Assembly (NCBI GenBank): GCA_016201905.1
Contig: JACQBQ010000001.1
Coordinates: 3,405-67,404 of the forward strand
Direction: 5' to 3'
From: Candidatus Melainabacteria bacterium
GTDB taxonomy: Bacteria; Cyanobacteriota; Vampirovibrionia; 2-02-FULL-35-15
Length of the DNA: 64,000 nucleotides
Below the pieces are notes generated by a model. It searched no databases and was not told the DNA's origin. It was given only the letters and a program-made list of their open reading frames with translations. This document shows, piece by piece, positions 2,768 through 61,585 of the stretch (its first letter is position 1; every line of letters begins with the position of its first letter). A program made the position numbers and the translations under genes.

Positions 2768-4691
2768 AAGGATTATATTTTTTTTTGCAATAATATGCAC
2801 CTTTTTTTTCTTTGGTTGTTCGAATTCAGATACTCCTTTTGGTTTTTTAAATCACCAGACACAAAATATAAATAACCTAATTGATTTTAATGGTGACAAA
2901 TGCTCTGAACTTGTTTTCTGGAATACTTCATCCATGTCTAAGTCTGATAAGTTTCTTGAGCTTTGTTTTTTTGAAACTTTGAACTTAAAAGAAAACAAAT
3001 ATTCAAAATTAAATCTAGGAGAAGTTGGTGATATTCCTTTTGTTGGATACTTTGATGAAGACTCAGTTGCAGATTATGGACTTTATAGAAGTAGTTCAGA
3101 AGGTTTTGGTAGCTGGATTATACAAAGTGGTGCAAATTCAAATCTAGTTAACATAAAGTTTGGAAAGTCTGGAGATATTCCTGTTCCAAATGATTATGAT
3201 GGAGATGAAAAATATGACATTGCAATTTATCATCCACTAGATAGTAGCTTTGAGGGAATTTTTAGCAGAAACCAGATTCCATTTCACTTCAAGCTTGGCA
3301 TAAATGGTGATATTCCTGTATCAAAGGACTATGACGGTGATGGTAAAGCTGACTTTACGACATACAGACCCAGAAACGGTGTCTGGACAATAAGATCATC
3401 GAGAGATGGAAGTGTTACAGAAAAAGAACTTGGCGGTCCATATTTTTTGCCTATACCTAGTGACTATGATGGTGATGGTAAGGCTGATTTATGTGCATGG
3501 AATAGTTTTAATAATTCATTAAAAGTAATATTAACTTCCTTTAAGGCACCATTATCAGGTGATATTTTAGAAAAGATTCAGAATGAATTAAATGGCAAAG
3601 ACTTTTTTCCTGTTCCTTTAGATTATGATGGTAATGGAGTTAGTGAGCTTGCTTTCTGGAGTAACTCATTAAAAATACTTTTAACATTTGACATAAGAGG
3701 GAATTTAAAACAAAAAACTTATTATTTCCCTAAAGTAACGAATTCGCTCCCCGTTAACAATTTCCTTTTAAGAAAACTAGTCTTAGAAAATATTAGTAGA
3801 ACTTCTGCTGTACTTTTTAAAGATGGTGAGATTATTCGTTATCCGCTTTCCGGGCTTAAAACTAAAAGCTTACACATATTTAAATGGAATAAAAAAGAAA
3901 AAGTTATACCGTTTGCTTCTGATTTTGATGGAGATTATGTTTTAGATTCGTGCTTGTGGTCAGTTAACACTGGAACATTTTTATGTAGTTCAAGTAGAGT
4001 TGGCTGGAAATTTGCTCTACCGCTTGGTCAGAAGATAGATGTGCCAGTAGTTGGCAATTTTAATAGCGATAATATTACTGACATAGGTGTTTATAGAAAT
4101 GCTGAAAGAAGTTTTTATTACCGATTTTTGGGGAAATCAGCACCGAAGGAAATCCAAACTTTTCAGTTAAGTGAAGATGCAGGTGTGTATGGTGTGCCAC
4201 AAATAGCTGATTATGATGGAGACAGAATAGATGACTTTGCGATTTTTAATCCTCAAAACAATATTTTTATAATTAAAAGATCATCTGATTTGCTGGAAGC
4301 GAAGATAAACCTAACTAATACCGGTGAATCTATCCCTGTAGTTGGGGATTTTGATGGTGATGGCAAAGCAGATCCTGCCATTATTAGTACTGACCAGCAC
4401 GATTCTAAATTTACTTATTATTCCAGTACATATGGAAAGTCATTTGATTTTCCTATTAGTGCATTTTATGGACTACCAATTGCTTCTGATATTGATCATG
4501 ACTTAAAATCCGATCTACTGTTTTTTGACAATAATAAAGGAAACTTAGTCATTGCTCTGTCTTCTCAAAATCAGGGAGGTAATAAAGAAAAACTCCTTGA
4601 TTATAAGTTTATAAAAGATGCCAGCCCAGTAAATTGTCCATGGCTATATAATATTATTTATGCAAAAACAAAAAATAAAAATAGTTCTTGA
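2760..4691 (+). CDS. FG-GAP repeat lipoprotein, a larger paralog of the preceding gene
   Basis: The N-terminus MSKRIIFFFAIICTFFFFGCS has a lipobox-like FGC. At least 8 DYDGDGKAD/DFDGDGKAD-type repeats follow. The ORF track opens at 2724; the Met at 2760 is the more likely start. Confidence 0.55.
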   Translation: MSKRIIFFFAIICTFFFFGCSNSDTPFGFLNHQTQNINNLIDFNGDKCSELVFWNTSSMSKSDKFLELCFFETLNLKENKYSKLNLGEVGDIPFVGYFDEDSVADYGLYRSSSEGFGSWIIQSGANSNLVNIKFGKSGDIPVPNDYDGDEKYDIAIYHPLDSSFEGIFSRNQIPFHFKLGINGDIPVSKDYDGDGKADFTTYRPRNGVWTIRSSRDGSVTEKELGGPYFLPIPSDYDGDGKADLCAWNSFNNSLKVILTSFKAPLSGDILEKIQNELNGKDFFPVPLDYDGNGVSELAFWSNSLKILLTFDIRGNLKQKTYYFPKVTNSLPVNNFLLRKLVLENISRTSAVLFKDGEIIRYPLSGLKTKSLHIFKWNKKEKVIPFASDFDGDYVLDSCLWSVNTGTFLCSSSRVGWKFALPLGQKIDVPVVGNFNSDNITDIGVYRNAERSFYYRFLGKSAPKEIQTFQLSEDAGVYGVPQIADYDGDRIDDFAIFNPQNNIFIIKRSSDLLEAKINLTNTGESIPVVGDFDGDGKADPAIISTDQHDSKFTYYSSTYGKSFDFPISAFYGLPIASDIDHDLKSDLLFFDNNKGNLVIALSSQNQGGNKEKLLDYKFIKDASPVNCPWLYNIIYAKTKNKNSS

Positions 4692-12510: not shown

Positions 12511-12524
12511 AATTTTTTTACCTC

Positions 12525-12603
12525 GGAAAAATCTCGCTTTGAAACAAGATTTTTCCTTTTCCTTCCCGGCGCTCAGAATATTGCTTACCGCAACATTCTT
12601 TGC
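12525..12603 (-). promoter_or_regulatory. Conserved two-hairpin element, copy A, ending 14 nt before the start codon of the 68-aa ORF
   Basis: Minus-strand sequence GAATGTTGC-GGTAA-GCAATATTC ... GGAAAAATCT-TGTTTCAAAGCG-AGATTTTTCC, then GAGG and ATG. Confidence 0.5.
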
Positions 12604-12655
12604 TTATCTTATGCTGCTTTTTGAGTTAATCTCCTCCTCAAGCTTTTTTTATTAA

Positions 12656-23954: not shown

Positions 23955-24036
23955 CTGAGCGAAGAATATTGCGGTGAGCAATATTCTAAGCGTCGGGAAG
24001 GAAAAGGAAAAATCTTGTTCAAAGCGAGATTTTTCC
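23955..24036 (+). promoter_or_regulatory. Conserved two-hairpin element, copy B, in the 5' region of the Na+/Ca2+ exchanger gene
   Basis: GAATATTGC-GGTGA-GCAATATTC ... GGAAAAATCT-TGTTCAAAGCG-AGATTTTTCC; about 90% identical to copy A over 75 nt. One stem position is A-U in one copy and G.U in the other. Confidence 0.5.
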
Positions 24037-24047
24037 GCTTAAAAAAC

Positions 24048-39555: not shown

Positions 39556-40641
39556 TTAGTTCTCAGCAACTCTAAGAGCAATAGTTTTTTGTTCGATTTT
39601 CTTTTTAATTTTTGGCAGCATGTTTATTGCTTCTTCTTCGCCTACTTTAATTGCTTTTGCAAGACTTACTTTATCAAGGTTTAATATGCCCACTTCTTTT
39701 AAGTCCGGGCTTATAACAATATCTGCTTTATCCAGAGCTGCCTCTGACTGTGCCCTTAATCCAAGACCAATAACACGGATAATAATGCCTTCAAAAGATC
39801 TAAAGTTTTCTGATTTTATTTCTTCAAGCTTTCTATCGACATCCACAGCAATAACAATATCTGCTCCCATTTTTTTTGCCTCATCAACAGGAATATTTTT
39901 TAAAATCCCGCCATCGACAAGTAGCTGGTTGTTAATCGGAATTGGCTGACGCAGTGTAGGTATTGAAGTGCTTGCCTGAACTGCAAGGCCAACATCCCCG
40001 GATTTTATTACCACTGGCAAGCCACTAATTAAATCAACTGCAATAATGTGTAATGGAATACTTATGTTAATTGTTCCATCTTTTTTTGAAATCAGTTGGT
40101 TTACAAAATGATGTAATCTATGGTCATTATATAAGCCAGCATAAAAAGGTTTTCCTACAATAGTCCGAAATCCTCTATTTAGATAGAGGAAAAATGCTCT
40201 AAAGATAGAAAAATCTGTTTTATATACTTTTGTTATTGCACCTGTTAAAACCTGCTCTTCAATTTCATCTGGACTTAGTCCTCCTGAATATAGTGCTGCA
40301 ATTAAAGCTCCAGCACTAGTACCGACAAGGTAATCAACAGGAATATTTTCTCTTTCAAGAACTCTTAAAACACCAATTTGTGCAGCACCACGTGCGCCAC
40401 CACCGCCCAACGCTAATCCAATCTTTGGTCTTATTACAGAACTATTTTTTGCAAGGGCAGATGAGGTAGTAAAAATGAGTAGAAAGCAAAGAAAAAGAGA
40501 AAAGTTCTTTACGTCATTGCGAGGAGTGAAAAGACGTTGCATGCAACGTCTCCACGGCAATCTCCCAAACGTTAATGAGATTGCTTCGTCGTCCGCCTGG
40601 GCGGACTCCTCGCAATGACGTGTCACATTTTTTTTCTTCAC
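39556..40641 (-). CDS. Patatin-like phospholipase
   Basis: GGGARGAAQIG, GTSAGAL (catalytic Ser) and VDGGILKN (catalytic Asp). The first ~35 codons, including both candidate start ATGs at 40641 and 40542, come from a GC-rich repeat element. Confidence 0.8.
   Translation of the reverse strand: MKKKNVTRHCEESAQADDEAISLTFGRLPWRRCMQRLFTPRNDVKNFSLFLCFLLIFTTSSALAKNSSVIRPKIGLALGGGGARGAAQIGVLRVLERENIPVDYLVGTSAGALIAALYSGGLSPDEIEEQVLTGAITKVYKTDFSIFRAFFLYLNRGFRTIVGKPFYAGLYNDHRLHHFVNQLISKKDGTINISIPLHIIAVDLISGLPVVIKSGDVGLAVQASTSIPTLRQPIPINNQLLVDGGILKNIPVDEAKKMGADIVIAVDVDRKLEEIKSENFRSFEGIIIRVIGLGLRAQSEAALDKADIVISPDLKEVGILNLDKVSLAKAIKVGEEEAINMLPKIKKKIEQKTIALRVAEN
40513..40619. repeat. GC-rich palindromic mini-element, copy 2 (GTCATTGCGAGGAG...CTCCTCGCAATGAC), forming the 5' coding end of the patatin gene
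   Basis: Perfect 14-nt terminal inverted repeats. Internal palindromes GACGTTGCATGCAACGTC and GTCCGCCTGGGCGGAC. Confidence 0.8.
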
Positions 40642-42761: not shown

Positions 42762-43568
42762 ATGTTTAAGGTTTACACGCTATCGGACTCCAGCGGTGAA
42801 ACAGCTGAGCTTGTTGCCAAATCAGCTTTAAGTCAGTTTGAATCTTATAAGACAGAGATTCACAGGCTTCCTCAGGTTAGATCAGCTGAACAGGTAAAAG
42901 AGCTTTTTTCAAATGAAATAAAATCCCCAGCTATTATAGTTTATACATTAGTTTTACCTGAAGTCAGGCAGGCGCTAATTGAACAAGCTCAAAAGCACTC
43001 AATACCTATTTATGATGTGCTTGGGGATTTAGTTAGCAAATTAGAAGGCATTCTTCATGCCCCGCCTTTGCGTGAACCTGGTCTTAGATTAAAAGTCGAT
43101 CAATCTTATTTCAATAGGATGGATGCAATTCACTATGCGATTAAGTTTGATGATGGTCAGAGTTTAAATGGAATTGAAAGTGCTGATGTGGTTTTAATAG
43201 GTGTATCAAGAACTGGTAAAACACCAAGCTGTATGTATCTAGCACAACACTATGGCTTAAAAGCAGCAAATATTCCAATTGTTTCTGGAGTTGAACTACC
43301 CAAAAAATTGTTTCAGGTTCCAAGCAGTAAAATCATAGGACTAATGTGTGATCCTTTAATTTTACAGTCATTTAGAAGTACAAGAGCAAGCTCACTTCAA
43401 ATGGATTATAGTTCTGAGTATTGTGATTTTGATCATATTACAAAAGAAGTTGAACATTCAAAAAAAATCTTTCGTGACTTAAAATGTGAAGTGGTAGATA
43501 TGACAAATAGAGCTGTAGAAGAAACTGCAGTTGAGATAGTAGCAAAATTGCAACTAGTAAAGAAATGA
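42762..43568 (+). CDS. Pyruvate, phosphate dikinase regulatory protein (PDRP, DUF299, bifunctional kinase/pyrophosphorylase)
   Basis: P-loop VLIGVSRTGKTP plus family-wide similarity. Stop overlaps the ppdK start. Confidence 0.85.
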   Translation: MFKVYTLSDSSGETAELVAKSALSQFESYKTEIHRLPQVRSAEQVKELFSNEIKSPAIIVYTLVLPEVRQALIEQAQKHSIPIYDVLGDLVSKLEGILHAPPLREPGLRLKVDQSYFNRMDAIHYAIKFDDGQSLNGIESADVVLIGVSRTGKTPSCMYLAQHYGLKAANIPIVSGVELPKKLFQVPSSKIIGLMCDPLILQSFRSTRASSLQMDYSSEYCDFDHITKEVEHSKKIFRDLKCEVVDMTNRAVEETAVEIVAKLQLVKK

Positions 43569-46243
43569 AAAAAGTTTTCTTGTTTTCTGAAGCATTTAAA
43601 GCTTTTAATGGTGATGATTCCTTAATGCGTGAATATCTTGGCGGTAAAGGTACTGGCTTAGCCCAGATGACTAATGCAGGACTTAATGTGCCACCTGGAT
43701 TGACCATTACTACTAAAGCATGTGTGGAATACATGCAGAGTAAAAACATGTTTCCGCAAGGACTTTTTGATGAAATATTAGAAAAGTTGTCAGTTATCGA
43801 AGGTGAGCTGGGAAAAAAATTAGGTGATAAAAATAAACCGCTTTTAGTATCTGTCCGCTCTGGTGCCAGATTTTCAATGCCGGGCATGATGGATACAGTT
43901 TTAAATCTGGGTTTAAACGATGAAACTGTTGTAGGACTTGCCAAAGCTACTGCTAATGAGCGTTTTGCACTGGATAGCTATAGAAGGTTTATCCAGATGT
44001 TCGGTGATATTGTACTTGGGATTAATAAAGAATCCTTTGAGAGAGTTTTAACTGACTTTAAATCAAAAACAAAAATAACTTCAGATGCCCAGTTAGACGT
44101 CAGTGTATTGAAGGAGATAATTAAAGAGTTTAAAAACATTGTAAAAGAAAAAACAAAAAATGATTTTGTGCAGGATGTAAAAATCCAGCTTAAACTTGCT
44201 ATTGAAGCGGTTTTCAAATCCTGGAATAATCCCCGTGCCAAGTACTATAGAAAGTTAAATAAAATACCTGATGAGTCTGGAACTGCTGTAAGTGTTCAGG
44301 CAATGGTCTTTGGAAATATGGGCGATGATTCTGCAACTGGTGTTGCATTTACAAGAAATCCATCTACCGGGGAAGCTGAGCTTTATGGCGAATATTTGAT
44401 CTGTGCTCAGGGAGAAGATGTAGTAAGTGGCATCAGAACGCCAAAAAAAATAAGCGAAATGGGTAAAGAGCTGCCAAGTGTCTATAAACAATTTACCGAA
44501 TGTGCAAAAAAAATGGAAACTTACTATAGAGATGTTCAGGATATTGAGTTTACGATTGAATCTGGAAGGCTTTGGGTTTTACAGACAAGAGCAGCTAAAA
44601 GAACAGCACAAGCCTCTGTAAAAATTGCAGTTGATTTTGTCAGTGATAAAATTATCTCAAAAGAAGAAGCAATAACCAGAATTGATCCTGTGATCTTAAA
44701 TCAGTTTTTATTAAAAAGCTTTAACCCGAAAGCAAAAGAGCTTGCTCAAAAAGAAGGAAAACTACTTGCAGTTGGTTTAAATGCATCTCCAGGTGCAGCG
44801 ATTGGAAAAATTGTTTTTAATCCTGATGAATCTGAAAAACTTTCTTTAGCCGGGCAAAAAGTTATTTTAATAAGAGTAGAAACATGCCCTGATGACATTC
44901 ATGGAATAGTGTCTGCCGAGGGTGTTCTAACAAGTCGTGGTGGCATGACGAGCCATGCAGCAGTGGTAGCACGTGGCATGGGAAAACCATGTGTTGTTGG
45001 CTGTGAGGCTTTAAAGATTGATCTGGAAAAAGAAATTGTTTCAAGCAATGGTTACATTTTAAAAAAAGGAGATTTAATTTCTATCGATGGTTCTACTGGA
45101 CAGGTTTTTACTGGTGACATAGAGACTCAAGAACCAAAGATGAGTAAAGAACTTAAAACTTTGCTTTTGTGGGCAGATGAAATTAAAAAGCTTGGTGTTA
45201 GAGCAAATGCAGATACACCGACTGATGCTAAAAGAGCCTTGGACTTTGGGGCTTGCGGCATTGGGCTTTGCAGAACAGAGCATATGTTTATGCAGCAGGA
45301 GCGTTTAGTCTGGGTACAGAAGATGATTATGGCAAGCACTCACAGCGAAAGAGAAGAAGCCTTAAAAAAACTTTTGCCTTTTCAAAAACAAGATTTTAAA
45401 GATATTTTTAAAGTAATGGCAGGGCTTCCAGTAACTATTAGACTTTTGGATCCACCGCTACATGAGTTTTTGCCAAAACGTGATGAATTAATTGCTCAGG
45501 TGGGTGACTTAAAGTGTAAAGGACTTGATTATTCAAAAGAAGAAAAACTTTTAAATAAAGTCAGACATCTTCATGAAGTAAATCCAATGATGGGCTTACG
45601 TGGCTGTAGGCTGGGGATTTCTTATCCGGAAATAAATAAAATGCAGGTTGAGGCAATCTTTGAAGCAGCTTGTGAACTTGTGCAGGAAAAAATTGATGTA
45701 AAAGTAGAGATAATGATTCCGTTAATTAGTGAAGCAAAAGAACTAAAGCATGTTAAAGATCAACTTGAAAATACTGCAAAAGAAATTATGGAAAAATATA
45801 AAACACAAATTGATTATAAATTTGGCACGATGATTGAGGTTCCACGTGCTGCACTGACTGCTTATGAAATAGCTGAACATGCTGAGTTTTTTAGTTTTGG
45901 GACAAATGATCTGACTCAGATGACATTTGCTTTTAGCCGTGATGATGCAGAAGGCAACTTTTTACCCAAATACATTGAAACAAAAATCTTACCTGAAAAC
46001 CCATTTGAAGTTTTGGATACAAAAGGAGTAGGACGTCTTATGAGAATAGCTGTTGAAGACGGTAGAAAAAAAAGAAAAGATTTAAAGATTGGAATATGCG
46101 GAGAGCATGGCGGTGAACCTAAATCCATATCTTTTGCAAATGAGTTAGGTCTTGACTATGTAAGCTGTTCACCGTTTCGTATTCCTATAGCTAGATTAGC
46201 TGCAGCACAAGCTTGTTTGAAAGTAAAAGAGAGAGATAAGTAA
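43565..46243 (+). CDS. ppdK: Pyruvate, phosphate dikinase
   Basis: GGKGTGLAQM (ATP-grasp), catalytic His region GGMTSHAAVVARGMGKPCV, and the PEP-utilising C-terminal TIM barrel (GLCRTEHMF, NDLTQ). Confidence 0.95.
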   Translation: MKKVFLFSEAFKAFNGDDSLMREYLGGKGTGLAQMTNAGLNVPPGLTITTKACVEYMQSKNMFPQGLFDEILEKLSVIEGELGKKLGDKNKPLLVSVRSGARFSMPGMMDTVLNLGLNDETVVGLAKATANERFALDSYRRFIQMFGDIVLGINKESFERVLTDFKSKTKITSDAQLDVSVLKEIIKEFKNIVKEKTKNDFVQDVKIQLKLAIEAVFKSWNNPRAKYYRKLNKIPDESGTAVSVQAMVFGNMGDDSATGVAFTRNPSTGEAELYGEYLICAQGEDVVSGIRTPKKISEMGKELPSVYKQFTECAKKMETYYRDVQDIEFTIESGRLWVLQTRAAKRTAQASVKIAVDFVSDKIISKEEAITRIDPVILNQFLLKSFNPKAKELAQKEGKLLAVGLNASPGAAIGKIVFNPDESEKLSLAGQKVILIRVETCPDDIHGIVSAEGVLTSRGGMTSHAAVVARGMGKPCVVGCEALKIDLEKEIVSSNGYILKKGDLISIDGSTGQVFTGDIETQEPKMSKELKTLLLWADEIKKLGVRANADTPTDAKRALDFGACGIGLCRTEHMFMQQERLVWVQKMIMASTHSEREEALKKLLPFQKQDFKDIFKVMAGLPVTIRLLDPPLHEFLPKRDELIAQVGDLKCKGLDYSKEEKLLNKVRHLHEVNPMMGLRGCRLGISYPEINKMQVEAIFEAACELVQEKIDVKVEIMIPLISEAKELKHVKDQLENTAKEIMEKYKTQIDYKFGTMIEVPRAALTAYEIAEHAEFFSFGTNDLTQMTFAFSRDDAEGNFLPKYIETKILPENPFEVLDTKGVGRLMRIAVEDGRKKRKDLKIGICGEHGGEPKSISFANELGLDYVSCSPFRIPIARLAAAQACLKVKERDK

Positions 46244-46294
46244 TTTATGTTATTTGTGAATAGTAATTCATCAAACTAGTTCTTGCCATTGGTG

Positions 46295-47790
46295 CTAGTT
46301 GCAAGTATATTGATAAAACAAAGTTTTTTCAGGTTTTCCTATACCTTCTTTAGAAATTGTATAATTCTGTATTAAATAGATTTCAAATGATTTTATTTTC
46401 TTATCTTCTGGATGATTAGAGTTCCAGTCATTGCATAGAAATTTAGCATAAGAAGGCAAGTAATAAGGGTTATTTGGACCCCAGACAGTTGTTCTTAAAA
46501 TATAAACTAACCAGTAGTGGTTCTTAAAAATAGCTGAAAGATTTTTGGATTTTTCCCAGCTAACTGGTTGTCCATTTCTAAACAAATCAACTTCTTCTCC
46601 ATTTTTAAGTTTTGCAGGAATTACAGGCCATGTGCTGTATCTCTGTATAGGTGAAAACATATTCCATTTTTGTTCTATTAAAAGTGATTTTCCTATCCAC
46701 TTATATTTTTCAGGGATTAACTGTTTTGAACAAAGCCCTCCTAAGTTCCAAAGGAATATATATGTTATAAAAAATAACGATAAGAAATTTGCAATTGGTA
46801 AATTTTTTAAGTCAGCAAAATTATTACCTGTAAACTTAGAATTAGTCATTTTATCCCAAAAAACAGGAGGTATAAAAATAAACAAAGCTGCAATATCAAC
46901 AAAATGAAATAAGCCTAAATTAAAAAAAATAGAAAAAATTAAGTGTAAACAAATAAGCACTGTTACTGCAAAAAGACGAATTAATCCATTCTTTCTAGGA
47001 GCCAATAGGAATAACGGCAAAATGACTTCAGCCAAGACTATTGCATAAGTAAGAAATGTTAAAAAGTTCTTAGGAAGGTTCAAAAGAAAAGATGCTGCTG
47101 GTCTTGCATATTGTGCTAGGTTTAAAGAAAAATATAATGCAGATCCATTTTGCCATTCAGAAGTCTGTAATTTACATGCAACTGAAAACCAATATATAAA
47201 TAAAACTTGTAGAATGATTCCCATAGTGCAAAAAGATGCAATTTGCTTCGACAATTTTTTTTTATTAAAACCAAAAAAATTATCTAATGAATAACACTCT
47301 CCCATCGGCAAAAATAAGCTCCAGAAAAATAGCAATCTGAGCATTAGGTCTCCCCCTGAAAGAATGTGATCATTTCTGGCATGCAACGATATCAATAAAT
47401 ACCAACATATAAATGTTGTAATTCTAGTTTTAAATCCTAATATAAGAAGTAATGCAAATATTCCAGAAACAACAAATAGCATTACCTGTACAGAGTAGTC
47501 TCCGCTTATATCATAAATAGATGGTAGTAAAGGGTGTAATGAATAATAGCGTTCAATTTCTCTAGGAAAAATACCTTCATCTGTATAAAATGCTTTTATG
47601 TCAGAGGAACGAAGAACTAATTCAACAATAAATAATAAAGGCTATGCTTATCCTAAAAAGAGCAAGGGATCTTATATCAATGCCAAATAATTCGATGATT
47701 TTAGATTTAAATAGTGTTAAAATTTTTTTTCTCTCCTGGAATGCTCTTATACACTAGAGCAATTAAGAAAAATAAAAGTAGCAATTCCAT
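46295..47790 (-). pseudogene. HTTM-domain (vitamin K-dependent gamma-carboxylase-like) membrane protein gene, interrupted by two frameshifts near its 5' end. The intact C-terminal ORF is 46295..47482.
   Basis: The main ORF has LISLHARNDHILSGGDLMLRLLFFWSLFLPMGECYSLDN. Upstream, other frames encode IDIRSLALFRISIAFIIY and ELVLRSSDIKAFYTDEGIFPR, matching the HTTM N-terminus as recalled (RSLAAFRI...L.RL.D.EAFYSD.G.LPR). Frame changes sit at an A8 run (47723-47730) and a TTATT-rich run (about 47625-47640). Confidence 0.5.
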
Positions 47791-47805
47791 ATTTTATGAA
47801 TTATT

Positions 47806-48102
47806 CTATTCTTTGCTCATCTTGCCAATTACTTCTTTTATAATCTTTACACCCTTATATTCATCTGGTAGTTTTTTTAATGAATCATTTGTTTCTCCAT
47901 AAATAAAGATAACCCAATTAGTTTTCTTACTATTAGGATCTTTAACTTTATCCCATCCATAACTAATATCCTGTCTTCCTTTGAAAAACTTTTTCTCATA
48001 TTCTTCAGCTAATTTTTCTATTTCTTTCTTTGTAAGATTTTTGCTATGGTTTGCTTTATTAATATTGGATGGATTTGTAGAGTCCTTTGGTATTTTTGGC
48101 AT
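47806..48102 (-). CDS. Hypothetical 98-aa hydrophilic protein
   Basis: Perfect AAGGAG lies 8 nt before the ATG. Same strand, between the HdrDE-like and HTTM genes. Confidence 0.5.
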   Translation of the reverse strand: MPKIPKDSTNPSNINKANHSKNLTKKEIEKLAEEYEKKFFKGRQDISYGWDKVKDPNSKKTNWVIFIYGETNDSLKKLPDEYKGVKIIKEVIGKMSKE

Positions 48103-48129
48103 TGTTAAGTCTCCTTTATTTATAATAAG

Positions 48130-50280
48130 CTACATAGTTGCACTAGCAACCAATTCACTAATATCTTTTACAGTTGGTGGTTCCCCGCTTTTATCAAGTG
48201 TTCTTGCAGTTTCAAGCATAATAGTACAGAAAGGACATGCGCTTGCAGCTGTCTTTGCACCTGATTCTTTAATTTCATTTAACCTCATAACGTTAATTTG
48301 TTTTCCAGGTGCTTCATACCAGAGCTGTGCTCCACCACCACCACAGCATGTCCCTTTTTCACGAGAGTTTTCCATTTCAATATATTTTAAGCCGGGGATT
48401 TTATTTAAAATGTTTCTTGGAGCATCATATTGACCATTATGACGACCAAGATAACAAGAATCGTGATAAGTTATTTCTTCACTGATTTCCTTTGTCATTG
48501 AGAGCTTTCCTTCTTTTATTAATTCCCATAAGATTTCAGTATGATGAAATACGCTGACATCTTTTAAGCCAAAGTCTGGATATTCATTTTTAAATGTATT
48601 AAAACAGTGGGGACAATGAGTAATAATTTTTTTAACATTTTTGCCTTTAAATATTTCAATATTTTCAATTGCCAGTTCCTGAAAAAGCCCTTCATCGCCA
48701 GCTCTGCGAGCTGTATCACCTGTGCATTTTTCTTTTTTGCCTAAAATTGCAAACTTTACATTTGCTTTTTTAAGTAAACTTACCATTGTCTTTGCAATAT
48801 TTTGATTTCTTGAATCATAAGCTCCAGCACAACCAACCCAGTATAAATATTCAAAGTCACTGGTAGTTTCAATGTTTGGAACATTCAGACCTTCTGTCCA
48901 TTTTTCACGATCTTCTGGTGGCTGCCCCCATGGATTTGAACGTGAACGAATATTTTTTAGGGTATTAAGCAGATTATTTGGTGCTTTATTTTCTGAAATT
49001 AATGACCTTCTTAAATCAATGATTTTTGTTAATTGATCAATTCCAACAGGGCAGGTCTCTACACAAGCTCGACAGGAAGTGCATGACCATAGGGTTTCAG
49101 GAGTAAGTAGATCAGATAAAGTTAGCGTTGTAGTGTCATTGCGAGCCGAAGGCAAAGCAATCTCGCTAACTGTTTCACGTTGTTGAGATTGCTTCGCTCG
49201 CCTCGTCGGAGACGAGTCGGAGCGGGTCGCTGCACTCCTCGCAATGACGCTATTCGGTTTCTCTTCCTGCTTTCCACCTTTAAACCCATGATTGAGAATA
49301 GGTTCCTTATTCATGATTTGCTTCAAATCTAAAATTATCCATTTAGGTGAAAGTGGTTTTTCTGAATTTGTTGCAGGACATACTTCATGACATTTTCCAC
49401 AGGCTGTACATGTGTCCAGATCCATTAAATCTTTCCATGTAAAATCTTCTATCTTTGAAACTGTTTGTGCAAAATCATCTGGTGGATTTTCCATTGCCAT
49501 GATCTCTACTAAGTTAAACGGTGTACTTAAAGCCCCTTTTGGTTTTAAGTCGCTAAAAAATATATTTATTGGTGCTATAAACATATGACTAAACTTTGTA
49601 AATGGAATTAGAGCAATAAATGAAAATGTTTGTATTGAATGAAGCCACCATAAAATGAGATGTAGTGTCTTTTGTGTTTCATAAGAAAATCCTTGAACGC
49701 TATTTGCTATAAGTGCTCCAAGAAATGCATAAGGTTCAATCTGATCTGTTGCTGATTGTCTTAAACCTTCGATTAAAAATCCAAGAACTACAAATAATGC
49801 CAAGTAGACTAATTGAAACCAATCGTTCTGAAAATTATCTAGTCTTTTTGGTTTTACAACATACCTAATAAATGCAAAAAATCCAAGACCAACGAGCATT
49901 AACACGCCAGATAAGTCCATTAAAAAAGAATAGGACTTGTAAAACATGCCATGAAAAAAATATTCAGGCATGCGATCCTGAACTGTAAGTATGTCAGTCC
50001 CTATCCACAAAACAAAAAATCCATAAAAAACTAATATATGTGCAAGGATTGGAAGCTTATCCTTTCCCCAGCCTTTATATAAAAAACTTCTTACAAACAT
50101 GTTTTGAATGCGCTTGCTGAAGTCAGTAAGGTTATTTTTTGGTTTGCCTCTTGCCCAGCTTTTAATTTTTAAATAAAACCCAGAGATAAAAAATATTGCT
50201 GAAATAAAAAATAAAGAATAGAAAATTTCTTTGTAATGAGGCACATCGTGAATATTCCACCATAGACCGCGTGTTTCCAT
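48130..50280 (-). CDS. HdrDE/DsrMK-like membrane-bound Fe-S oxidoreductase: N-terminal NarI-like di-heme b membrane domain fused to two [4Fe-4S] ferredoxin motifs and two CCG cysteine-rich domains
   Basis: 5-6 TM helices with paired His (ILAHILVFYGFF, HLILWWLHSIQT). CTACGKCHEVCP and CTSCRACVETCP motifs. CCG-type clusters (CCGGGG, CPFC, HCPHC). Carries an in-frame 114-nt repeat insertion. Confidence 0.7.
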   Translation of the reverse strand: METRGLWWNIHDVPHYKEIFYSLFFISAIFFISGFYLKIKSWARGKPKNNLTDFSKRIQNMFVRSFLYKGWGKDKLPILAHILVFYGFFVLWIGTDILTVQDRMPEYFFHGMFYKSYSFLMDLSGVLMLVGLGFFAFIRYVVKPKRLDNFQNDWFQLVYLALFVVLGFLIEGLRQSATDQIEPYAFLGALIANSVQGFSYETQKTLHLILWWLHSIQTFSFIALIPFTKFSHMFIAPINIFFSDLKPKGALSTPFNLVEIMAMENPPDDFAQTVSKIEDFTWKDLMDLDTCTACGKCHEVCPATNSEKPLSPKWIILDLKQIMNKEPILNHGFKGGKQEEKPNSVIARSAATRSDSSPTRRAKQSQQRETVSEIALPSARNDTTTLTLSDLLTPETLWSCTSCRACVETCPVGIDQLTKIIDLRRSLISENKAPNNLLNTLKNIRSRSNPWGQPPEDREKWTEGLNVPNIETTSDFEYLYWVGCAGAYDSRNQNIAKTMVSLLKKANVKFAILGKKEKCTGDTARRAGDEGLFQELAIENIEIFKGKNVKKIITHCPHCFNTFKNEYPDFGLKDVSVFHHTEILWELIKEGKLSMTKEISEEITYHDSCYLGRHNGQYDAPRNILNKIPGLKYIEMENSREKGTCCGGGGAQLWYEAPGKQINVMRLNEIKESGAKTAASACPFCTIMLETARTLDKSGEPPTVKDISELVASATM
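49135..49248. repeat. GC-rich palindromic mini-element, copy 3, inserted in-frame (114 nt = 38 codons) in the HdrDE-like gene
   Basis: Termini GTCATTGCGAGC...CCTCGCAATGAC. Internal CTCGTCGGAGACGAG and GCAAAGCAATCTC/GAGATTGCTTCGC. Confidence 0.8.
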
Positions 50281-56240: not shown

Positions 56241-56660
56241 TTACTGATTCTTGTCATTAAAAAATATTTTACTAGCATACACTAAAGCAATACCAACTGC
56301 CAGATAGATTATCCCTAAAATTGGTCTATCAATAGGACTACGCCTTAAAATCCCACCCATCCCCATCATAAGACCAATTAGAACAAATCCTCTTACACCT
56401 AGTATTTTTATCCAGCCTATTAGTATGTCATTTTTATTAAACTGGATAACATCAGCTCTCTTATAATATTTTAAAGCAATTTTCTGAAGTATAAATCTTC
56501 CTTTTAGCAGGCCCACAGTTACACTTGATGTAATAAAAATAATTAGTTTTATACCAAAGCTTAGTTTTAATAACCAGCTTATCCCGGCAATCGATAATCC
56601 TAAACCTACAAGTAGCCAAATTATTCCAACAATTACCAGACTGGCTTTTTTAGTATTCAT
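56241..56660 (-). CDS. Small polytopic membrane protein (139 aa)
   Basis: 4 TM helices. Preceded by the conserved hairpin element. Confidence 0.5.
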   Translation of the reverse strand: MNTKKASLVIVGIIWLLVGLGLSIAGISWLLKLSFGIKLIIFITSSVTVGLLKGRFILQKIALKYYKRADVIQFNKNDILIGWIKILGVRGFVLIGLMMGMGGILRRSPIDRPILGIIYLAVGIALVYASKIFFNDKNQ

Positions 56661-56667
56661 TTTTTGT

Positions 56668-56700
56668 CAAAAAAATCCTGCTTTGAACAAGATTTTTTCT
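56668..56700 (-). promoter_or_regulatory. Third, partial copy (second hairpin only) ending 8 nt before the start codon of the 139-aa membrane protein
   Basis: Minus strand AGAAAAAATCTTG-TTCAAAG-CAGGATTTTTTT. The loop TTGTTCAAAGC is conserved; the stem is kept by a U.G pair. Confidence 0.4.
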
Positions 56701-57109
56701 TTTCCCTTTACTTATTTTTTTTGTCTACTAACATTAATTTATTATCACGTAAAATATTCATAACAACAAGTAAAATGTTAAAAGATAAAGTTGATGAGAT
56801 AATTTGCTAACAATTGTTGTCGGTATATGTCTTTTTTTTAGAAGATATTTACCTCTTAATCAACTTCCGGCTCCCTTCAAAACGGTACGTAATAAGGTTT
56901 ATAAACCATTCTGAATATAAAATTTTTTTAATCTTTAGCCTTATTATGTGACTTAAGAGCTATTTTCTTATTAATTCTCTCGAAGATTAAATTTTTCTTA
57001 TTTGATTTACTTGTTTAAAGTCTTTTAAATTACCTCTAAAAAAGCTATTATTGTGTCATAAGTAATTTTTACTTATTAAAGATAAAGTTAAGAACAGTTA
57101 AAGGAAAGA

Positions 57110-57423: not shown

Positions 57424-57574
57424 TGTCATTGCCCGGCTCCGCCTCGTCGGAGACGAGGCGAGCGAGGAGCGAAGCGACGAAGCAATCCCGATCGCAATTA
57501 AATCAAGACTTAACTAATAACCATTTTCATAATATTCTTAGTCTGGGACTGCTTTGCCTTTAGCTCGCAGTGAC
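57424..57574. repeat. Composite ~150-nt copy of the GC-rich element (TGTCATTGCCCGG...AGCTCGCAGTGACA) in the convergent region between the 102-aa ORF and pilC
   Basis: Termini match copy 1. It shares CCTCGTCGGAGACGAGG with copy 3 and GAAGCAATCCC with copy 1. The AT-rich middle suggests a two-module arrangement. Confidence 0.6.
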
Positions 57575-57579
57575 AATAA

Positions 57580-59065: not shown

Positions 59066-61585
59066 ATGAAATACAAATGGCTCATAAGAGAATCAAAAGA
59101 AATTACAAAGGATTTTCTTCATACTGCTTTTGATTCAAGAGTTATTGCCAAGTTACTTTTAAATAGAGGAATTGATTCACCTGAAAAAGCAAAATCTTAT
59201 TTAGAGCCAAAGTTTTATAAAGAATCCAGACCAGAAGAAATCCAGGATCTGATAAAAGCAAAAGATCGAATCATTGAAGCAATAAATAAAAAAGAAAAAA
59301 TTACTATTTTTGGAGATTATGATGTAGATGGTGTTACTTCTACAGCTTGTTTACTAATTGCCCTTAGACAATTTACCGATAACATTGACTTTTATATTCC
59401 AAATAGGCTTACTGAAGGCTATGGATTAAATAATGAAGCAGTTAAAATTATAGCTAAAAAAAATAAAAAGGCTTGCCATGGCAAGCCTTTACTGATTACC
59501 TGTGACTGTGGAATAACAAACCATAAAGAAGTCAAGCTTGCAGGTGAGCTTGGTATGGATGTAATAGTCACTGATCACCATTCTTTACCTGAAGTTTTGC
59601 CCGATGCTTATGCAGTCTTAAATCCAAAACTTTTGCCAGGTGATCATAAACTACACTTTTTGCCCGGAGTAGGCGTTGCTTATAAACTTGCTAAGGCAAT
59701 TTTAGAGGAAAGAAAAGGAGAAGTTTGCAAAGAAGATCTTCTTGATCTTGTAGCACTTGGAATGATTGCTGACCTTGCACCGCTTGTAGATGAAAACAGG
59801 TATTTAGTTCAGATTGGTCTTGAAAAATTAGCAAGAACTGAAAAGATTGGTTTAAGAGAACTGCTTAGGATGTGTGGCTTTACTCCACAGGATAAAAATA
59901 GTCCTACGACAGAACATGTTGGCTTTGGAATTGCACCAAGGATAAATGCTGTAGGCAGGCTTACAGATGCAGCTCTGGCTGTAAGGCTTTTAACTACCTG
60001 TGATTTATTTGAAGCTGTTCAAATAGCTGGTGAACTTGAAAGTCAAAACAGACAGAGACAGTCACTCTGTGAAAGCACATTAAATGAAGCTGTTACGCTT
60101 GTATCTGAGCAGGTAGATTTTAAAAATGATAAATGCATTGTGCTGGCTAAAGATAGCTGGCATCATGGAGTAATTGGGATTGTAGCTTCAAGAGTAGTTG
60201 AAAAATTTAGTTTACCTACTGTTTTAATCGCCATTGATAAAGAACAAAACATAGCGCGAGGTTCAGGGCGCAGCATTGAGAAGTTAAATATTGTAGATGC
60301 TTTAACTAAAAGCTCTAAACATCTTGAGAAATATGGCGGTCATAAAGCTGCATGCGGACTAAGTGTAAAACCTGAGTTTGTTAATGATTTTATTTTTGAT
60401 TTTAAAGACAATGTAAATAAAATGCTTGACAATCAGAATTTAGAACCTGTTTTAAAGATTGATATGGAATTACCGCTTTCAGCTTTAGTTATGGATTTAA
60501 TGAATAAAGTAAATAAATTATCGCCTTTTGGTTTAGGAAATCCTATGTCAATTTTTACAAGCGATGAAATTGAAATAATTGGCATTAAAAATATTGGTAA
60601 AAACGGCCAGCATTTGAAGCTGACCTTAAGAACTTTGGATAGTGTCATTGCGAGGAGCAAAGAGACGTTGCATGCAACGTCTCCACAGCAATCTCAACAA
60701 CATGAAGAAGTGATCGAGATTGCTTCGCCTTTGGCTCGGAATGATGTGAAGCAGTTTGAAGCTCTAATCTGGAATCATAATGTTAATTTGCGATTTAATT
60801 TAGGAGATCAAATAAAAATCGCCTACACGCCAAAGTTAAATAATTACAATGGTGAGACATTTATACAGCTGGAAGTAAAAGACTGGCAGATCTTAAATGA
60901 TAAGAGTTTAGAAAATAAGAAAATTAAAAAAGAAGAAAAAGAAATTGAAATTTATGATTTTAGAGACAAAACACAAGAATTGTTAAGTATTCTTTCCTCA
61001 AGGCTTGATTCTGTAACCTGTTTTGCTGAGATTGAGCAAAAAAATCATTTAGATCTAAAAACCTTTTCAAGAAACAAAATTAAAAAAGCTGAAAGCCTTG
61101 TTTTTTTGGAAATCCCTCCTGACGAGTTTGTCTTTTTAGATATAATAAAACGCTCATGTGCTAAAAAGATTTACTTTGCATTTACCCAGCATCAAAATAA
61201 CTTAGAACCCCAGAATTTATTAAAAAGACTCATTGGTATGCTTAAATATGCAGTAAGCAATAAAAACTCAATCATAAACGAAACGGAGCTCCAGTCAGCT
61301 TTAGGTATAAATAGAACATCACTGGCTTATGCACTGGAAATACTTGTAAAGATAGGACTCTTATCGTATGAAAAGACAAACGGTGAATTAAATATCAATC
61401 TTTTAACTCCTGCTCGACAGAATTTCCTAGAGTTAATAGAATATAACCTGCTGGTTTCAGAGTTAAAACAAATTTTAGATTTTAAGAACTGGCTTTGTGA
61501 ATCTGATATTCTGCAAATAGAAAAGATGTTGAATGAACACAATATTTTGGCAAAGTTTATTTCTTATGAATCAATAAAGGTATAG
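59066..61585 (+). CDS. recJ: Single-stranded-DNA-specific exonuclease RecJ with a ~280-aa C-terminal extension
   Basis: DHH motifs (GDYDVDGVTS, TDHHS), the DHHA1 domain, and an OB-fold region carrying an in-frame GC-rich repeat insertion. Confidence 0.85.
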   Translation: MKYKWLIRESKEITKDFLHTAFDSRVIAKLLLNRGIDSPEKAKSYLEPKFYKESRPEEIQDLIKAKDRIIEAINKKEKITIFGDYDVDGVTSTACLLIALRQFTDNIDFYIPNRLTEGYGLNNEAVKIIAKKNKKACHGKPLLITCDCGITNHKEVKLAGELGMDVIVTDHHSLPEVLPDAYAVLNPKLLPGDHKLHFLPGVGVAYKLAKAILEERKGEVCKEDLLDLVALGMIADLAPLVDENRYLVQIGLEKLARTEKIGLRELLRMCGFTPQDKNSPTTEHVGFGIAPRINAVGRLTDAALAVRLLTTCDLFEAVQIAGELESQNRQRQSLCESTLNEAVTLVSEQVDFKNDKCIVLAKDSWHHGVIGIVASRVVEKFSLPTVLIAIDKEQNIARGSGRSIEKLNIVDALTKSSKHLEKYGGHKAACGLSVKPEFVNDFIFDFKDNVNKMLDNQNLEPVLKIDMELPLSALVMDLMNKVNKLSPFGLGNPMSIFTSDEIEIIGIKNIGKNGQHLKLTLRTLDSVIARSKETLHATSPQQSQQHEEVIEIASPLARNDVKQFEALIWNHNVNLRFNLGDQIKIAYTPKLNNYNGETFIQLEVKDWQILNDKSLENKKIKKEEKEIEIYDFRDKTQELLSILSSRLDSVTCFAEIEQKNHLDLKTFSRNKIKKAESLVFLEIPPDEFVFLDIIKRSCAKKIYFAFTQHQNNLEPQNLLKRLIGMLKYAVSNKNSIINETELQSALGINRTSLAYALEILVKIGLLSYEKTNGELNINLLTPARQNFLELIEYNLLVSELKQILDFKNWLCESDILQIEKMLNEHNILAKFISYESIKV
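60644..60746. repeat. GC-rich palindromic mini-element, copy 6 (near-identical 5' half to copy 2), inserted in-frame in recJ
   Basis: GTCATTGCGAGGAGCAAAGAGACGTTGCATGCAACGTCTCCAC...GAGATTGCTTCG...CTCGGAATGATG. Confidence 0.75.

What the first reader, a model, noticed from the sequence alone, without database searches (positions are those of the whole stretch)
47600..47800. HTTM gene 5' end is split by two homopolymer-associated frameshifts
The HTTM N-terminus is spread over three frames on the minus strand. (a) ATG at 47790 gives MELLLLFFLIALVYKSIPGEKK. (b) After an A8 run (47723-47730 on the plus strand as T8) a +1 frame gives ILTLFKSKIIELFGIDIRSLALFRISIAFIIY. (c) After a TTTATTATTTATT run (about 47625-47640) the main ORF frame gives ELVLRSSDIKAFYTDEGIFPR...MLFVVSG.... 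Joining them reconstructs a canonical HTTM N-terminus. Both breaks sit in homopolymer or low-complexity runs. That pattern suggests sequencing/assembly indels or slipped-strand phase variation, not old pseudogenisation, because the rest of the 395-aa ORF is intact.
Basis: seen in the sequence. Interest (0 to 1): 0.55.

Follow-up and report, generated by a model that had tools for sequence, protein, structure and literature searches.

The report
Freshly broken carboxylase-like membrane gene
A membrane-enzyme gene related to the human vitamin K-dependent carboxylase has been knocked out of frame twice near its start in an uncultured groundwater bacterium; the breaks are real but this is an ordinary, recently dead gene, not a new mechanism.

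Summary
On the minus strand the 5' end of the HTTM gene lies in three frames: ORF (a) from ATG 47790, segment (b) 47753-47625, and segment (c) from 47641 into the annotated 395-aa ORF. The b-to-c break is certain. Removing any one base in 47624-47644 restores a full-length protein and adds about 100 bits against a family HMM. The a-to-b break at the A8 tract is probable. Segment (a) is not part of the canonical HTTM domain. However, a syntenic Melainabacteria homologue (L003) has a hydrophobic N-terminal extension of the same length, also starting "ME". The sequence is not an assembler artefact. Logan assemblies of two separate sequencing runs reproduce 47600-47800 base for base, and 27 other A/T runs of 8 nt or more in the window sit inside intact ORFs. 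All 61 homologous loci where the N-terminal motif was found, plus three syntenic relatives, are single-frame. One relative lacks the gene altogether. All conserved residues are retained and there are no further stops, so the damage is young. Best reading: two real 1-nt insertions producing a recent pseudogene or null allele at a variable locus. Phase variation and programmed frameshifting are not supported. Interest is low.

The parts
47707..47790 (-). Segment (a): ATG 47790 plus 27 codons and TAA. Encodes MELLLLFFLIALVYKSIPGEKK.., the probable N-terminal transmembrane helix of the ancestral protein.
   Evidence: Searches show the sequence. Its hydrophobic stretch is in the top 1% of short ORFs. 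L003 has a hydrophobic N-terminal extension of the same length. It has no counterpart in the other homologues.
47723..47730 (-). A8 tract (T8 on the + strand). Probable site of the first 1-nt insertion (A7 to A8). A7 would read GAG AAA AAA ATT, joining frame a to frame b.
   Evidence: The positional orthologue P0003 has an in-frame A8 encoding KKK at the equivalent place.
47733..47737 (-). AGGAG, 2 nt 5' of the A8 tract and 9 nt 5' of ATT 47723. Either an ordinary Pro-Gly-Glu coding sequence or a Shine-Dalgarno-like element.
   Evidence: AGGAG occurs only 76 times in 128 kb (both strands); genuine starts in the window carry GGAG at -9 to -15.
47625..47753 (-). Segment (b): frame-b open stretch encoding ..KKILTLFKSKIIELFGIDIRSLALFRISIAFIIYC. 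It is followed by TGA 47624-47622 and contains no ATG, GTG or TTG.
   Evidence: HMM positions 5-31, E 1.4e-8. (tblastx/tblastn from the single-frame relatives L083 and L087 land here in frame -3).
47624..47644 (-). Window containing the second frameshift. Deleting any one base here restores the ORF. The sequence is T-rich, with no run longer than T3.
46295..47641 (-). Segment (c): frame-c open stretch of 448 codons plus stop. It includes the annotated 395-aa ORF (46295-47482, NCBI MBI3589794.1), whose ATG is internal and has no well-placed Shine-Dalgarno motif (nearest GGAG at -21).
   Evidence: HMM positions 29-470, 463.9 bits.
46246..48130 (.). Block (HTTM gene plus the 98-aa ORF) that is absent from relative L084. 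There the HdrD-like gene abuts the pyruvate phosphate dikinase (PPDK) gene directly.
47806..48102 (-). Upstream 98-aa ORF of unknown function, with a good Shine-Dalgarno sequence. It is not found in the syntenic relatives.
48130..50280 (-). 716-aa HdrD-like membrane redox protein (NarI-like, 4Fe-4S and CCG domains). It is the conserved upstream neighbour of HTTM genes in related Melainabacteria.
43565..46243 (+). Pyruvate phosphate dikinase (PPDK), the convergent downstream neighbour. It anchors synteny with L087 and L084.

Best explanation
The gene once encoded a membrane protein of about 497 aa. It had a clade-specific N-terminal transmembrane helix, an HTTM domain and a C-terminal beta-rich domain, with a fold like vitamin K-dependent gamma-carboxylase. 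It has been inactivated by two real single-base insertions within its first 170 nt.

Shown:
- One extra base within 47624-47644 moves the reading frame from b to c. Translation from upstream therefore stops at TGA 47624-47622.
- The sequence is reproducible across assemblies.
- Relatives are intact.

Inferred:
- One extra A in a Lys-Lys A7 tract (now A8, 47723-47730) moves the frame from a to b. Replication slippage in an A/T-rich tract is the likely cause of this insertion and possibly of the second.
- The only product reachable from a canonical start is a short peptide, or the 395-aa fragment from the internal ATG. That fragment lacks the most conserved part of the family (the DxRSLAxFR...R...YxDxGxxPR region), so the allele is most likely null.
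- The event is recent. The ORF is otherwise intact and conserved residues are untouched.
- The gene sits in a locus where gene content varies between relatives, so it is probably dispensable and on its way out.
For: - Frames and homology.
- A relative with 85.6% nt identity in the flanking HdrD-like gene (L083) has a single-frame HTTM N-terminus. It maps first to window frame -3 (47717-47631) and then to frame -1 (47638-47501).
- The positional orthologue P0003/L087 sits in the same gene order (HdrD-like ... HTTM, then convergent PPDK, PPDK regulator, GrpE, APS kinase). It is intact at 594 aa and was seen on 8 contigs.
- All 61 of the 80 genome loci in which the N-terminal motif could be located are intact and have a canonical start.
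- Reproducibility: Logan contigs from SRR12113410 (exact match) and SRR12113409 (one substitution elsewhere, no gaps).
- No intact allele exists anywhere in a 5.8-billion-protein collection. The only hit above 46% identity is the truncated P0001.
- No general frameshift problem: 91.7% coding density, and 27 of 27 long A/T runs within long ORFs are in frame.
- Segment (a) as a real N-terminus.
- Youth of the lesion.
- Variable locus: L084 lacks 46246-48130, and L087 carries two tandem HTTM paralogues with DCC domains that the window lacks.
- The N-terminal 100 residues are an integral, confidently modelled part of the fold (pLDDT 88-98), and the model matches GGCX.
Against: - No reads were inspected, so a systematic error shared by both runs, or a minority intact allele, cannot be excluded. 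The two runs may also sample the same population.
- Two lesions both falling in the first 170 of 1,494 nt has a probability of about 1% if placement were random, while an A9 tract further inside the gene is intact. This clustering is unexplained.
- For the first site there is a competing reading. Most homologues start 2-5 residues before the K.K..ELFGID motif, exactly where ATT 47723 lies, and an AGGAG sits 9 nt upstream of it. On that reading only one frameshift exists.
- No close orthologue (more than 46% identity) exists, so the ancestral nucleotide state cannot be read directly.
Confidence: 0.72

Rival explanations
1. There is only one frameshift. The gene's initiation site is at 47723, served by the AGGAG 9 nt upstream. 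The start codon is either a near-cognate ATT or an ATG mutated to ATT. ORF (a) is a separate small ORF or a chance ORF. The gene is still broken by the insertion at 47624-47644.
For: - 18 aligned homologues begin 2-5 residues before K.K..ELFGID.
- With ATT as residue 1 the repaired protein is 475 aa and aligns to HMM position 5 at residue 5. Adding (a) adds no score.
- The commonest start distance among the 61 loci is 16 codons before the RSLAxFR motif. ATT lies at 17.
- AGGAG is rare (76 per 128 kb) and its spacing equals that of real starts in the window.
- ATG 47790 has no Shine-Dalgarno sequence.
Against: - None of the 61 homologous loci lacks a canonical start, so ATT would be unique.
- ORF (a) encodes an unusually hydrophobic helix (top 1%).
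- The syntenic L003 protein necessarily includes an equivalent hydrophobic extension of identical length starting ME.
- The L087 725-aa paralogue has a hydrophobic extension too.
- The orthologue P0003 codes through an in-frame A8.
Confidence: 0.2
2. Sequencing or assembly artefact. One or both extra bases are not present in the organism's DNA.
For: - This is a metagenome-assembled genome.
- Some Melainabacteria bins in the probable source study are labelled with about 9x coverage. The link to that study is unverified.
- One site is a homopolymer.
Against: - Three assemblies (the MAG and two Logan run assemblies) agree base for base over 47172-48997.
- The probable platform is Illumina 150-nt paired-end, which has low indel error.
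- The second site has no run longer than T3.
- 27 of 27 other long A/T runs that lie in long ORFs are in frame.
- No intact version appears in any public assembly searched.
Confidence: 0.06
3. Functional switch. Either slipped-strand phase variation at the A tract, or programmed recoding (+1 ribosomal frameshifting or transcriptional slippage), lets some full-length protein be made.
For: - A8 lies in the 5' coding region of a membrane protein gene.
- AGGAG sits 2 nt 5' of the A run, a geometry reminiscent of the prfB +1 site (own knowledge of prfB; sequence).
- The second overlap window ends at UGU UGA, so a shifty-stop site is formally possible.
- Both lesions cluster at the 5' end.
- The coding sequence is undecayed.
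Against: - The frameshifts are not conserved in any of 61 homologous loci or 3 syntenic relatives.
- There is no RNA structure downstream of either site (z 0.04 and 0.35).
- There is no Rfam hit.
- The P-site UGU cannot re-pair in the +1 frame, and no Shine-Dalgarno-like element lies near site 2.
- The A-site codon at site 1 is an ordinary AAU.
- A8 tracts are compositional here (32 in 64 kb).
- Contigs from both runs show the same tract length.
- Two successive +1 events would be needed.
Confidence: 0.05
4. The annotated 395-aa protein starting at ATG 47482 is the real, functional product, and the upstream homology is irrelevant leader sequence.
For: NCBI annotates it this way (MBI3589794.1). 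The 395-aa ORF is intact.
Against: - It starts at HMM position 81 of 472 and loses about 100 bits of family signal.
- It lacks 3 invariant and 9 near-invariant residues and the first helices of a confidently modelled fold.
- No homologue of the family is this short at the N-terminus.
- There is no Shine-Dalgarno motif at the right distance.
Confidence: 0.04

Closest known systems
[quoted passage not shown]
   Same: The Pfam HTTM match is above threshold. The AlphaFold model of the repaired protein matches human GGCX cryo-EM structures over about 480 columns, covering both the membrane domain and the C-terminal domain (E 1e-8, TM about 0.5). An invariant Lys lies in the family alignment (K184 in the 475-aa numbering).
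   Different: Identity to GGCX is only 14-17% and there is no sequence-level hit to any solved structure. The protein is shorter (about 475-497 aa against 758 aa for human GGCX, length from own knowledge). Substrate and cofactor are unknown. Here the gene is disrupted.
Bacterial HTTM-DCC proteins (annotated 'YuxK/DCC thiol-disulfide oxidoreductase') and the SdpB family
   Same: The positional orthologue P0003 and its tandem paralogue in L087 have an HTTM core followed by a DCC-like insert and the same C-terminal domain. There is a weak SdpB-family match (53.8 bits).
   Different: The window's gene belongs to the 475-aa class, which lacks the DCC insert. The SdpB score is far below the family cut-off of 178 bits.
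Frameshift pseudogenes arising by slippage in poly(A/T) tracts of AT-rich genomes (for example insect endosymbionts; own knowledge)
   Same: A single-base expansion of a Lys-coding A tract in a 34% GC genome. The ORF is otherwise intact. The gene sits in a region where relatives differ in gene content.
   Different: The second lesion is not in a long homopolymer. No evidence was obtained for rescue by transcriptional slippage.
prfB-type programmed +1 ribosomal frameshifting
   Same: At site 1 a Shine-Dalgarno-like AGGAG lies a few nt 5' of a slippery run. At site 2 an in-frame UGA closes the overlap window.
   Different: There is no conservation in relatives, no stop or rare codon in the A site at site 1, a non-slippery P-site codon at site 2, and two events would be needed.

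Membership tests
HTTM domain family (PF05090) | Match to the Pfam HTTM model above the gathering score | tested here: met
   44.3 bits against a cut-off of 27.7, residues 37-308 of the 497-aa reconstruction.
HTTM domain family (PF05090) | GGCX-like fold of the membrane domain plus the C-terminal domain | tested here: met
   AF2 model with pLDDT 92 and pTM 0.92. Foldseek against PDB: 15 GGCX entries at E 1e-8 to 1e-5, TMq 0.45-0.52.
Vitamin K-dependent carboxylase (functional GGCX orthologue) | Catalytic lysine equivalent to human K218, and quinone-dependent carboxylation | not tested
   An invariant Lys exists in the family alignment (K206 in the 497-aa numbering, K184 in the 475-aa numbering). 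Its structural equivalence to K218 was not checked, and activity cannot be tested here.
Pseudogene (disrupted orthologue of an intact gene) | Homology continues across a change of reading frame with no canonical restart | tested here: met
   HMM positions 5-31 lie in frame b and 29-470 in frame c. Frame c has no ATG, GTG or TTG before 47482. Single-frame relatives map onto two frames.
Pseudogene (disrupted orthologue of an intact gene) | Orthologues and homologues are not disrupted at the same place | tested here: met
   61 of 61 loci with a detected motif are intact. The syntenic L087/P0003, L003 and L083 are all single-frame.
Pseudogene (disrupted orthologue of an intact gene) | The lesion is present in the DNA and is not an artefact | tested here: inconclusive
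   The sequence is identical in the MAG and in Logan assemblies of two runs. Raw reads were not available.
Pseudogene (disrupted orthologue of an intact gene) | Loss of function or expression | not testable with these tools
   Inferred only from the loss of conserved N-terminal residues.
Programmed +1 ribosomal frameshift (prfB type) | The frameshift site is conserved among relatives | tested here: not met
   No relative carries either frameshift.
Programmed +1 ribosomal frameshift (prfB type) | Slippery P-site codon, slow A-site codon and a Shine-Dalgarno-like stimulator about 3 nt upstream | tested here: inconclusive
   Site 1 has an A run with AGGAG 2 nt upstream, but an ordinary AAU in the A site. 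Site 2 has UGU UGA, with no re-pairing possible and no nearby Shine-Dalgarno-like element. No flanking structure was found.
Phase-variable contingency locus (slipped-strand mispairing) | An unusually long simple repeat at the switch point | tested here: not met
   A8 is one of 32 A/T runs of 8 nt or more in 64 kb, and 27 of them lie in intact ORFs. The second site has no run longer than T3.
Phase-variable contingency locus (slipped-strand mispairing) | Tract-length heterogeneity in the population | not testable with these tools
   Contigs from two runs show the same lengths, but minority alleles can only be seen in the reads.

The most novel reading that the evidence does not exclude
The 5' end is a deliberate low-output expression switch. 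A Shine-Dalgarno-like AGGAG 2 nt upstream of A8 promotes +1 slippage (or RNA polymerase slips on the tract), joining the transmembrane helix (a) to the HTTM core. A second +1 event at UGU_UGA then completes the frame. On this reading a GGCX-like enzyme is made only rarely, or under particular conditions.
Probability: 0.04. Interest if true: 0.6.

Novelty: new member of a known kind. Interest (0 to 1): 0.15.

Why it matters
There are three practical consequences.
- The public protein MBI3589794.1 (395 aa) is an N-terminally truncated call made on a disrupted gene, and it should be flagged as a pseudogene.
- MAG frameshifts should not automatically be put down to assembly error. Independent run-level assemblies can test that cheaply.
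- The case records ongoing loss of an accessory GGCX-like gene at a variable locus in non-photosynthetic Melainabacteria.

It does not open a new biological question by itself. The conserved adjacency of HTTM genes to an HdrD-like quinone-interacting redox protein in this clade may be a more useful lead for working out what bacterial HTTM proteins do.

Tried and rejected
- ATT start. I first favoured this model, in which segment (a) is spurious and initiation occurs at ATT 47723 served by AGGAG. The basis was the 18-homologue alignment and the HMM. I demoted it after finding the syntenic L003 and L087 proteins with hydrophobic N-terminal extensions and after the hydrophobicity statistics. It is kept as a rival.
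- Closer relatives. I searched for strain variants or close orthologues that would give the ancestral nucleotides. The protein search gave 46% identity as the next best hit. The GTDB genome scan gave 42% at best. Two JGI metagenome scans found nothing.
- L082, a relative of the flanking gene, has an unrelated gene downstream.
- RNA elements. There were no Rfam or tRNA hits in the window, and no significant folding around either site.
- Promoter and terminator scan. Matches were at or below the number expected from shuffled sequence and were not used.
- Sequence search against PDB gave nothing. Only the fold search found GGCX.
- Provenance. I could not confirm that run SRR12113410 belongs to the He et al. 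2021 groundwater study, because its supplements as held do not list it. The Illumina platform is therefore an inference.
- Base composition of the HTTM block is slightly lower in GC (27-32% against 34-39%). I do not treat this as evidence of transfer, because it is a membrane protein gene in an AT-rich genome.

Full report
**What is in the sequence**

- Frame a starts at ATG 47790 and gives MELLLLFFLIALVYKSIPGEKKNFNTI, then TAA (47709-47707).
- Frame b is open over 47753-47625 and gives ..ERKKILTLFKSKIIELFGIDIRSLALFRISIAFIIYC, then TGA (47624-47622). It contains no ATG, GTG or TTG.
- Frame c opens at 47641, after TAG 47644-47642, and runs 448 codons to the stop at 46295-46297. Its first canonical start is the ATG at 47482, which begins the annotated 395-aa ORF.
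- The A8 tract is at 47723-47730.

Removing one A from that tract and one base from the T-rich stretch gives a 497-aa protein with a Pfam HTTM domain above threshold (44.3 bits against 27.7).

**Is it more than chance?**

An HMM built from 18 full-length homologues, run over all six-frame open stretches of the window, hits only two of them. Frame c matches model positions 29-470 at 463.9 bits. Frame b matches positions 5-31 at E 1.4e-8. Deleting any single base in 47624-47644 yields an ORF scoring 503-506 bits, against 406.6 bits for the annotated ORF. The b-to-c break is therefore a true frame disruption inside a homologous coding sequence. The exact extra base cannot be identified, because the score differences are under 3 bits. 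That site has no homopolymer longer than T3. "Low complexity" describes it correctly and "homopolymer" does not.

**The first break**

Segment (a) has no counterpart in most of the family.
- The 18 aligned homologues begin 2-5 residues before the K.K..ELFGIDxRSLALFR motif.
- In the 61 of 80 GTDB loci where the motif could be located, the commonest start is 16 codons before it.
- The equivalent codon in the window is ATT 47723, with AGGAG 9 nt upstream. AGGAG occurs only 76 times in 128 kb, and its spacing here equals that of real starts in the window.

On this evidence I first thought the first "frameshift" was illusory. Syntenic relatives changed that view.
- L003 is a Melainabacteria MAG from the RIFCSPHIGHO2 samples. 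It carries a 75%-identical HdrD-like gene immediately followed by an HTTM gene.
- The first possible start of that HTTM gene after the upstream stop is an ATG 39 codons before the motif.
- Its N-terminus is MESQAIRLLIIITIVFTVYIWRSLKNKDSKAEELFGFDLRSLALFR. This is a hydrophobic helix followed by a Lys-rich linker.
- ATG 47790 is also exactly 39 codons before the motif once one A is removed. It also begins ME and also encodes a hydrophobic helix followed by KSIPGEKK.
- The 725-aa HTTM paralogue in L087 has a similar hydrophobic extension.
- The 12-residue hydropathy maximum of ORF (a) is 3.13. That is exceeded or equalled by 3 of 304 short ATG ORFs in all six frames of the window, and by 0.2% of random open ORFs of that length.
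- The positional orthologue P0003 codes straight through an in-frame A8 (AGT AAA AAA AAG ATA) at the equivalent place.

Either way the gene is broken at the second site.

**Is it an artefact?**

The window comes from an NCBI MAG of Candidatus Melainabacteria. The 395-aa ORF is MBI3589794.1 and the contig is 89,682 nt.
- The Logan assembly of run SRR12113410 contains a 5,106-nt contig that is an exact substring of the window (43892-48997).
- The Logan assembly of a second run, SRR12113409, contains a 3,077-nt contig covering 47172-50248. It has one substitution (at 48352) and no gaps.
- Three assemblies made by different software from two runs therefore agree on both sites.
- The rest of the window is clean. 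It has 53 long ORFs and 91.7% coding density.
- Of 32 A/T runs of 8 nt or more, 27 lie inside intact long ORFs. These include an A8 and an A9 inside this very gene.
- No intact allele exists in the 5.8-billion-protein collection. The only hit above 46% identity is the truncated protein itself.
- The likely source study used Illumina 150-nt paired reads with MEGAHIT. I could not verify that link.

An artefact is therefore unlikely (about 6%), but only the reads can exclude it.

**What relatives show**

Relatives of the flanking 716-aa HdrD-like gene were found through its 90% cluster.
- L083 has 85.6% nt identity in that gene. It is followed 7 nt later by an HTTM gene whose first 127 codons are in one frame. 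By tblastx they map to window frame -3 (47717-47631) and then frame -1 (47638-47501). That HTTM is only 42% identical to ours.
- L084 has 81% nt identity. There the HdrD-like gene abuts PPDK directly, and window 46246-48130 (the HTTM gene plus the 98-aa ORF) is absent.
- L087/L088 carry the full synteny: HdrD-like, TPR, a 725-aa HTTM-DCC-TPR paralogue, the 594-aa HTTM P0003, then convergent PPDK, PPDK regulator, a 158-aa ORF, GrpE and APS kinase. P0003 is the closest homologue (46% identity), is intact, and was seen on 8 contigs.

So orthologues are intact, the locus varies in gene content, and the window lacks the DCC-bearing paralogue.

**Age**

- In the 80 residues upstream of the annotated Met, all 3 invariant and 9 near-invariant family positions are retained.
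- This split N-terminus is 55% identical to P0002 and P0003, higher than the 46% for the whole protein.
- 6.2% of possible single substitutions in the repaired ORF would create a stop. A stop-free ORF would survive 5% neutral divergence only about 1% of the time.

The disruption is recent.

**What the protein is**

An AlphaFold2 model of the repaired 475-aa version is confident, with pLDDT 92 and pTM 0.92. Its first 100 residues score 88-98. Its only significant PDB matches are human vitamin K-dependent gamma-carboxylase structures (E 1e-8, TM about 0.5 over about 480 columns, 14-17% identity). There is no sequence-level PDB hit. The N-terminal helices are an integral part of that fold, so the 395-aa fragment is unlikely to work. 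That last step is inference.

**Recoding and phase variation**

- No relative shares either shift.
- No RNA structure flanks either site (z 0.04 and 0.35), and there is no Rfam hit.
- Site 2 would need a +1 shift from UGU onto GUU, with no stimulator nearby.
- Site 1 has a slippery A run with AGGAG 2 nt upstream. This is reminiscent of prfB, but with an ordinary A-site codon.
- A8 tracts are compositional in this 34% GC genome.
- Reverting the A tract alone would not restore the ORF.

One point remains unexplained. Both lesions fall within the first 170 of 1,494 nt, which has a probability of about 1% if placement were random. I keep a combined probability of about 5% for a functional switch.

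**Verdict**

It is partly wrong: assembly error is unlikely and phase variation is not supported. The best explanation is a real, young pseudogene or null allele of an accessory GGCX-like HTTM gene, produced by single-base insertions. This is an ordinary event. Interest is low.

Noticed in passing
window 49123-49275 (inside the HdrD-like gene 48130-50280); also 40513-40641, 60644-60744, 57433-57578: A dispersed, GC-rich palindromic element of about 115-140 nt, with terminal inverted repeats GTCATTGCGAGGAG...CTCCTCGCAATGAC. Copies lie inside long ORFs. In the HdrD-like protein the element adds an in-frame insertion of about 43 aa (..VIARSAATRSDSSPTRRAKQSQQRETVSEIALPSARNDTT..), which is absent from the orthologues in L087, L003 and L082. 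This resembles the in-frame palindromic elements of Rickettsia.
   Followed up: partly
window 46295-50280; L003 1894-5700; L083 1-1035; L087 16-6785: HTTM genes lie immediately downstream of, or near, the same HdrD-like membrane redox gene (NarI-like, 4Fe-4S and CCG domains) in four Melainabacteria contigs. The HdrD-like proteins are 70-91% identical, while the HTTM proteins are only 36-46% identical. This could reflect a functional pairing in which a quinone-interacting reductase serves a GGCX-like enzyme, with fast-evolving or replaced HTTM partners.
   Followed up: partly
L087 2824-6785; L003 3920-7600: Relatives carry two tandem HTTM paralogues. In L087 both have a DCC-like insert between the HTTM core and the C-terminal domain, and one also has a C-terminal TPR extension. 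This explains the 594-725 aa class that covered only about 60% of the query.
   Followed up: partly
window 46295-47482: The public annotation (MBI3589794.1, 'HTTM domain-containing protein', 395 aa) starts at an internal ATG that has no well-placed Shine-Dalgarno motif. It hides the fact that the gene is disrupted, so the entry is a truncated protein in nr.
   Followed up: yes
window 47733-47737: AGGAG lies 2 nt 5' of the A8 tract and 9 nt 5' of ATT 47723, the codon that aligns with the start codons of most homologues. Whether this is a coincidence, a relic ribosome-binding site or a frameshift stimulator remains unresolved.
   Followed up: partly
window 12515-12604, 23958-24046, 56660-56705: A second small repeat family, in direct and inverted copies (62 nt at 92% complementarity). 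Each copy contains an internal hairpin (AAAAATCTTGTTCAAAGCGAGATTTTT). The copies sit at or near ORF ends and may be terminator-like repeats.
   Followed up: no
window 1793-4691: Two adjacent ORFs contain at least 8 copies of a DYDGDGK(T/A)D-type repeat with a period of about 135 nt, typical of FG-GAP/VCBS-like calcium-binding repeats. No family search was run on them.
   Followed up: no
window 47806-48102: A 98-aa ORF with a good Shine-Dalgarno sequence lies between the HdrD-like gene and the HTTM gene. It has no Pfam or NCBIfam match and no counterpart in any syntenic relative. The identical protein was seen only in the two Logan runs and the MAG.
   Followed up: partly
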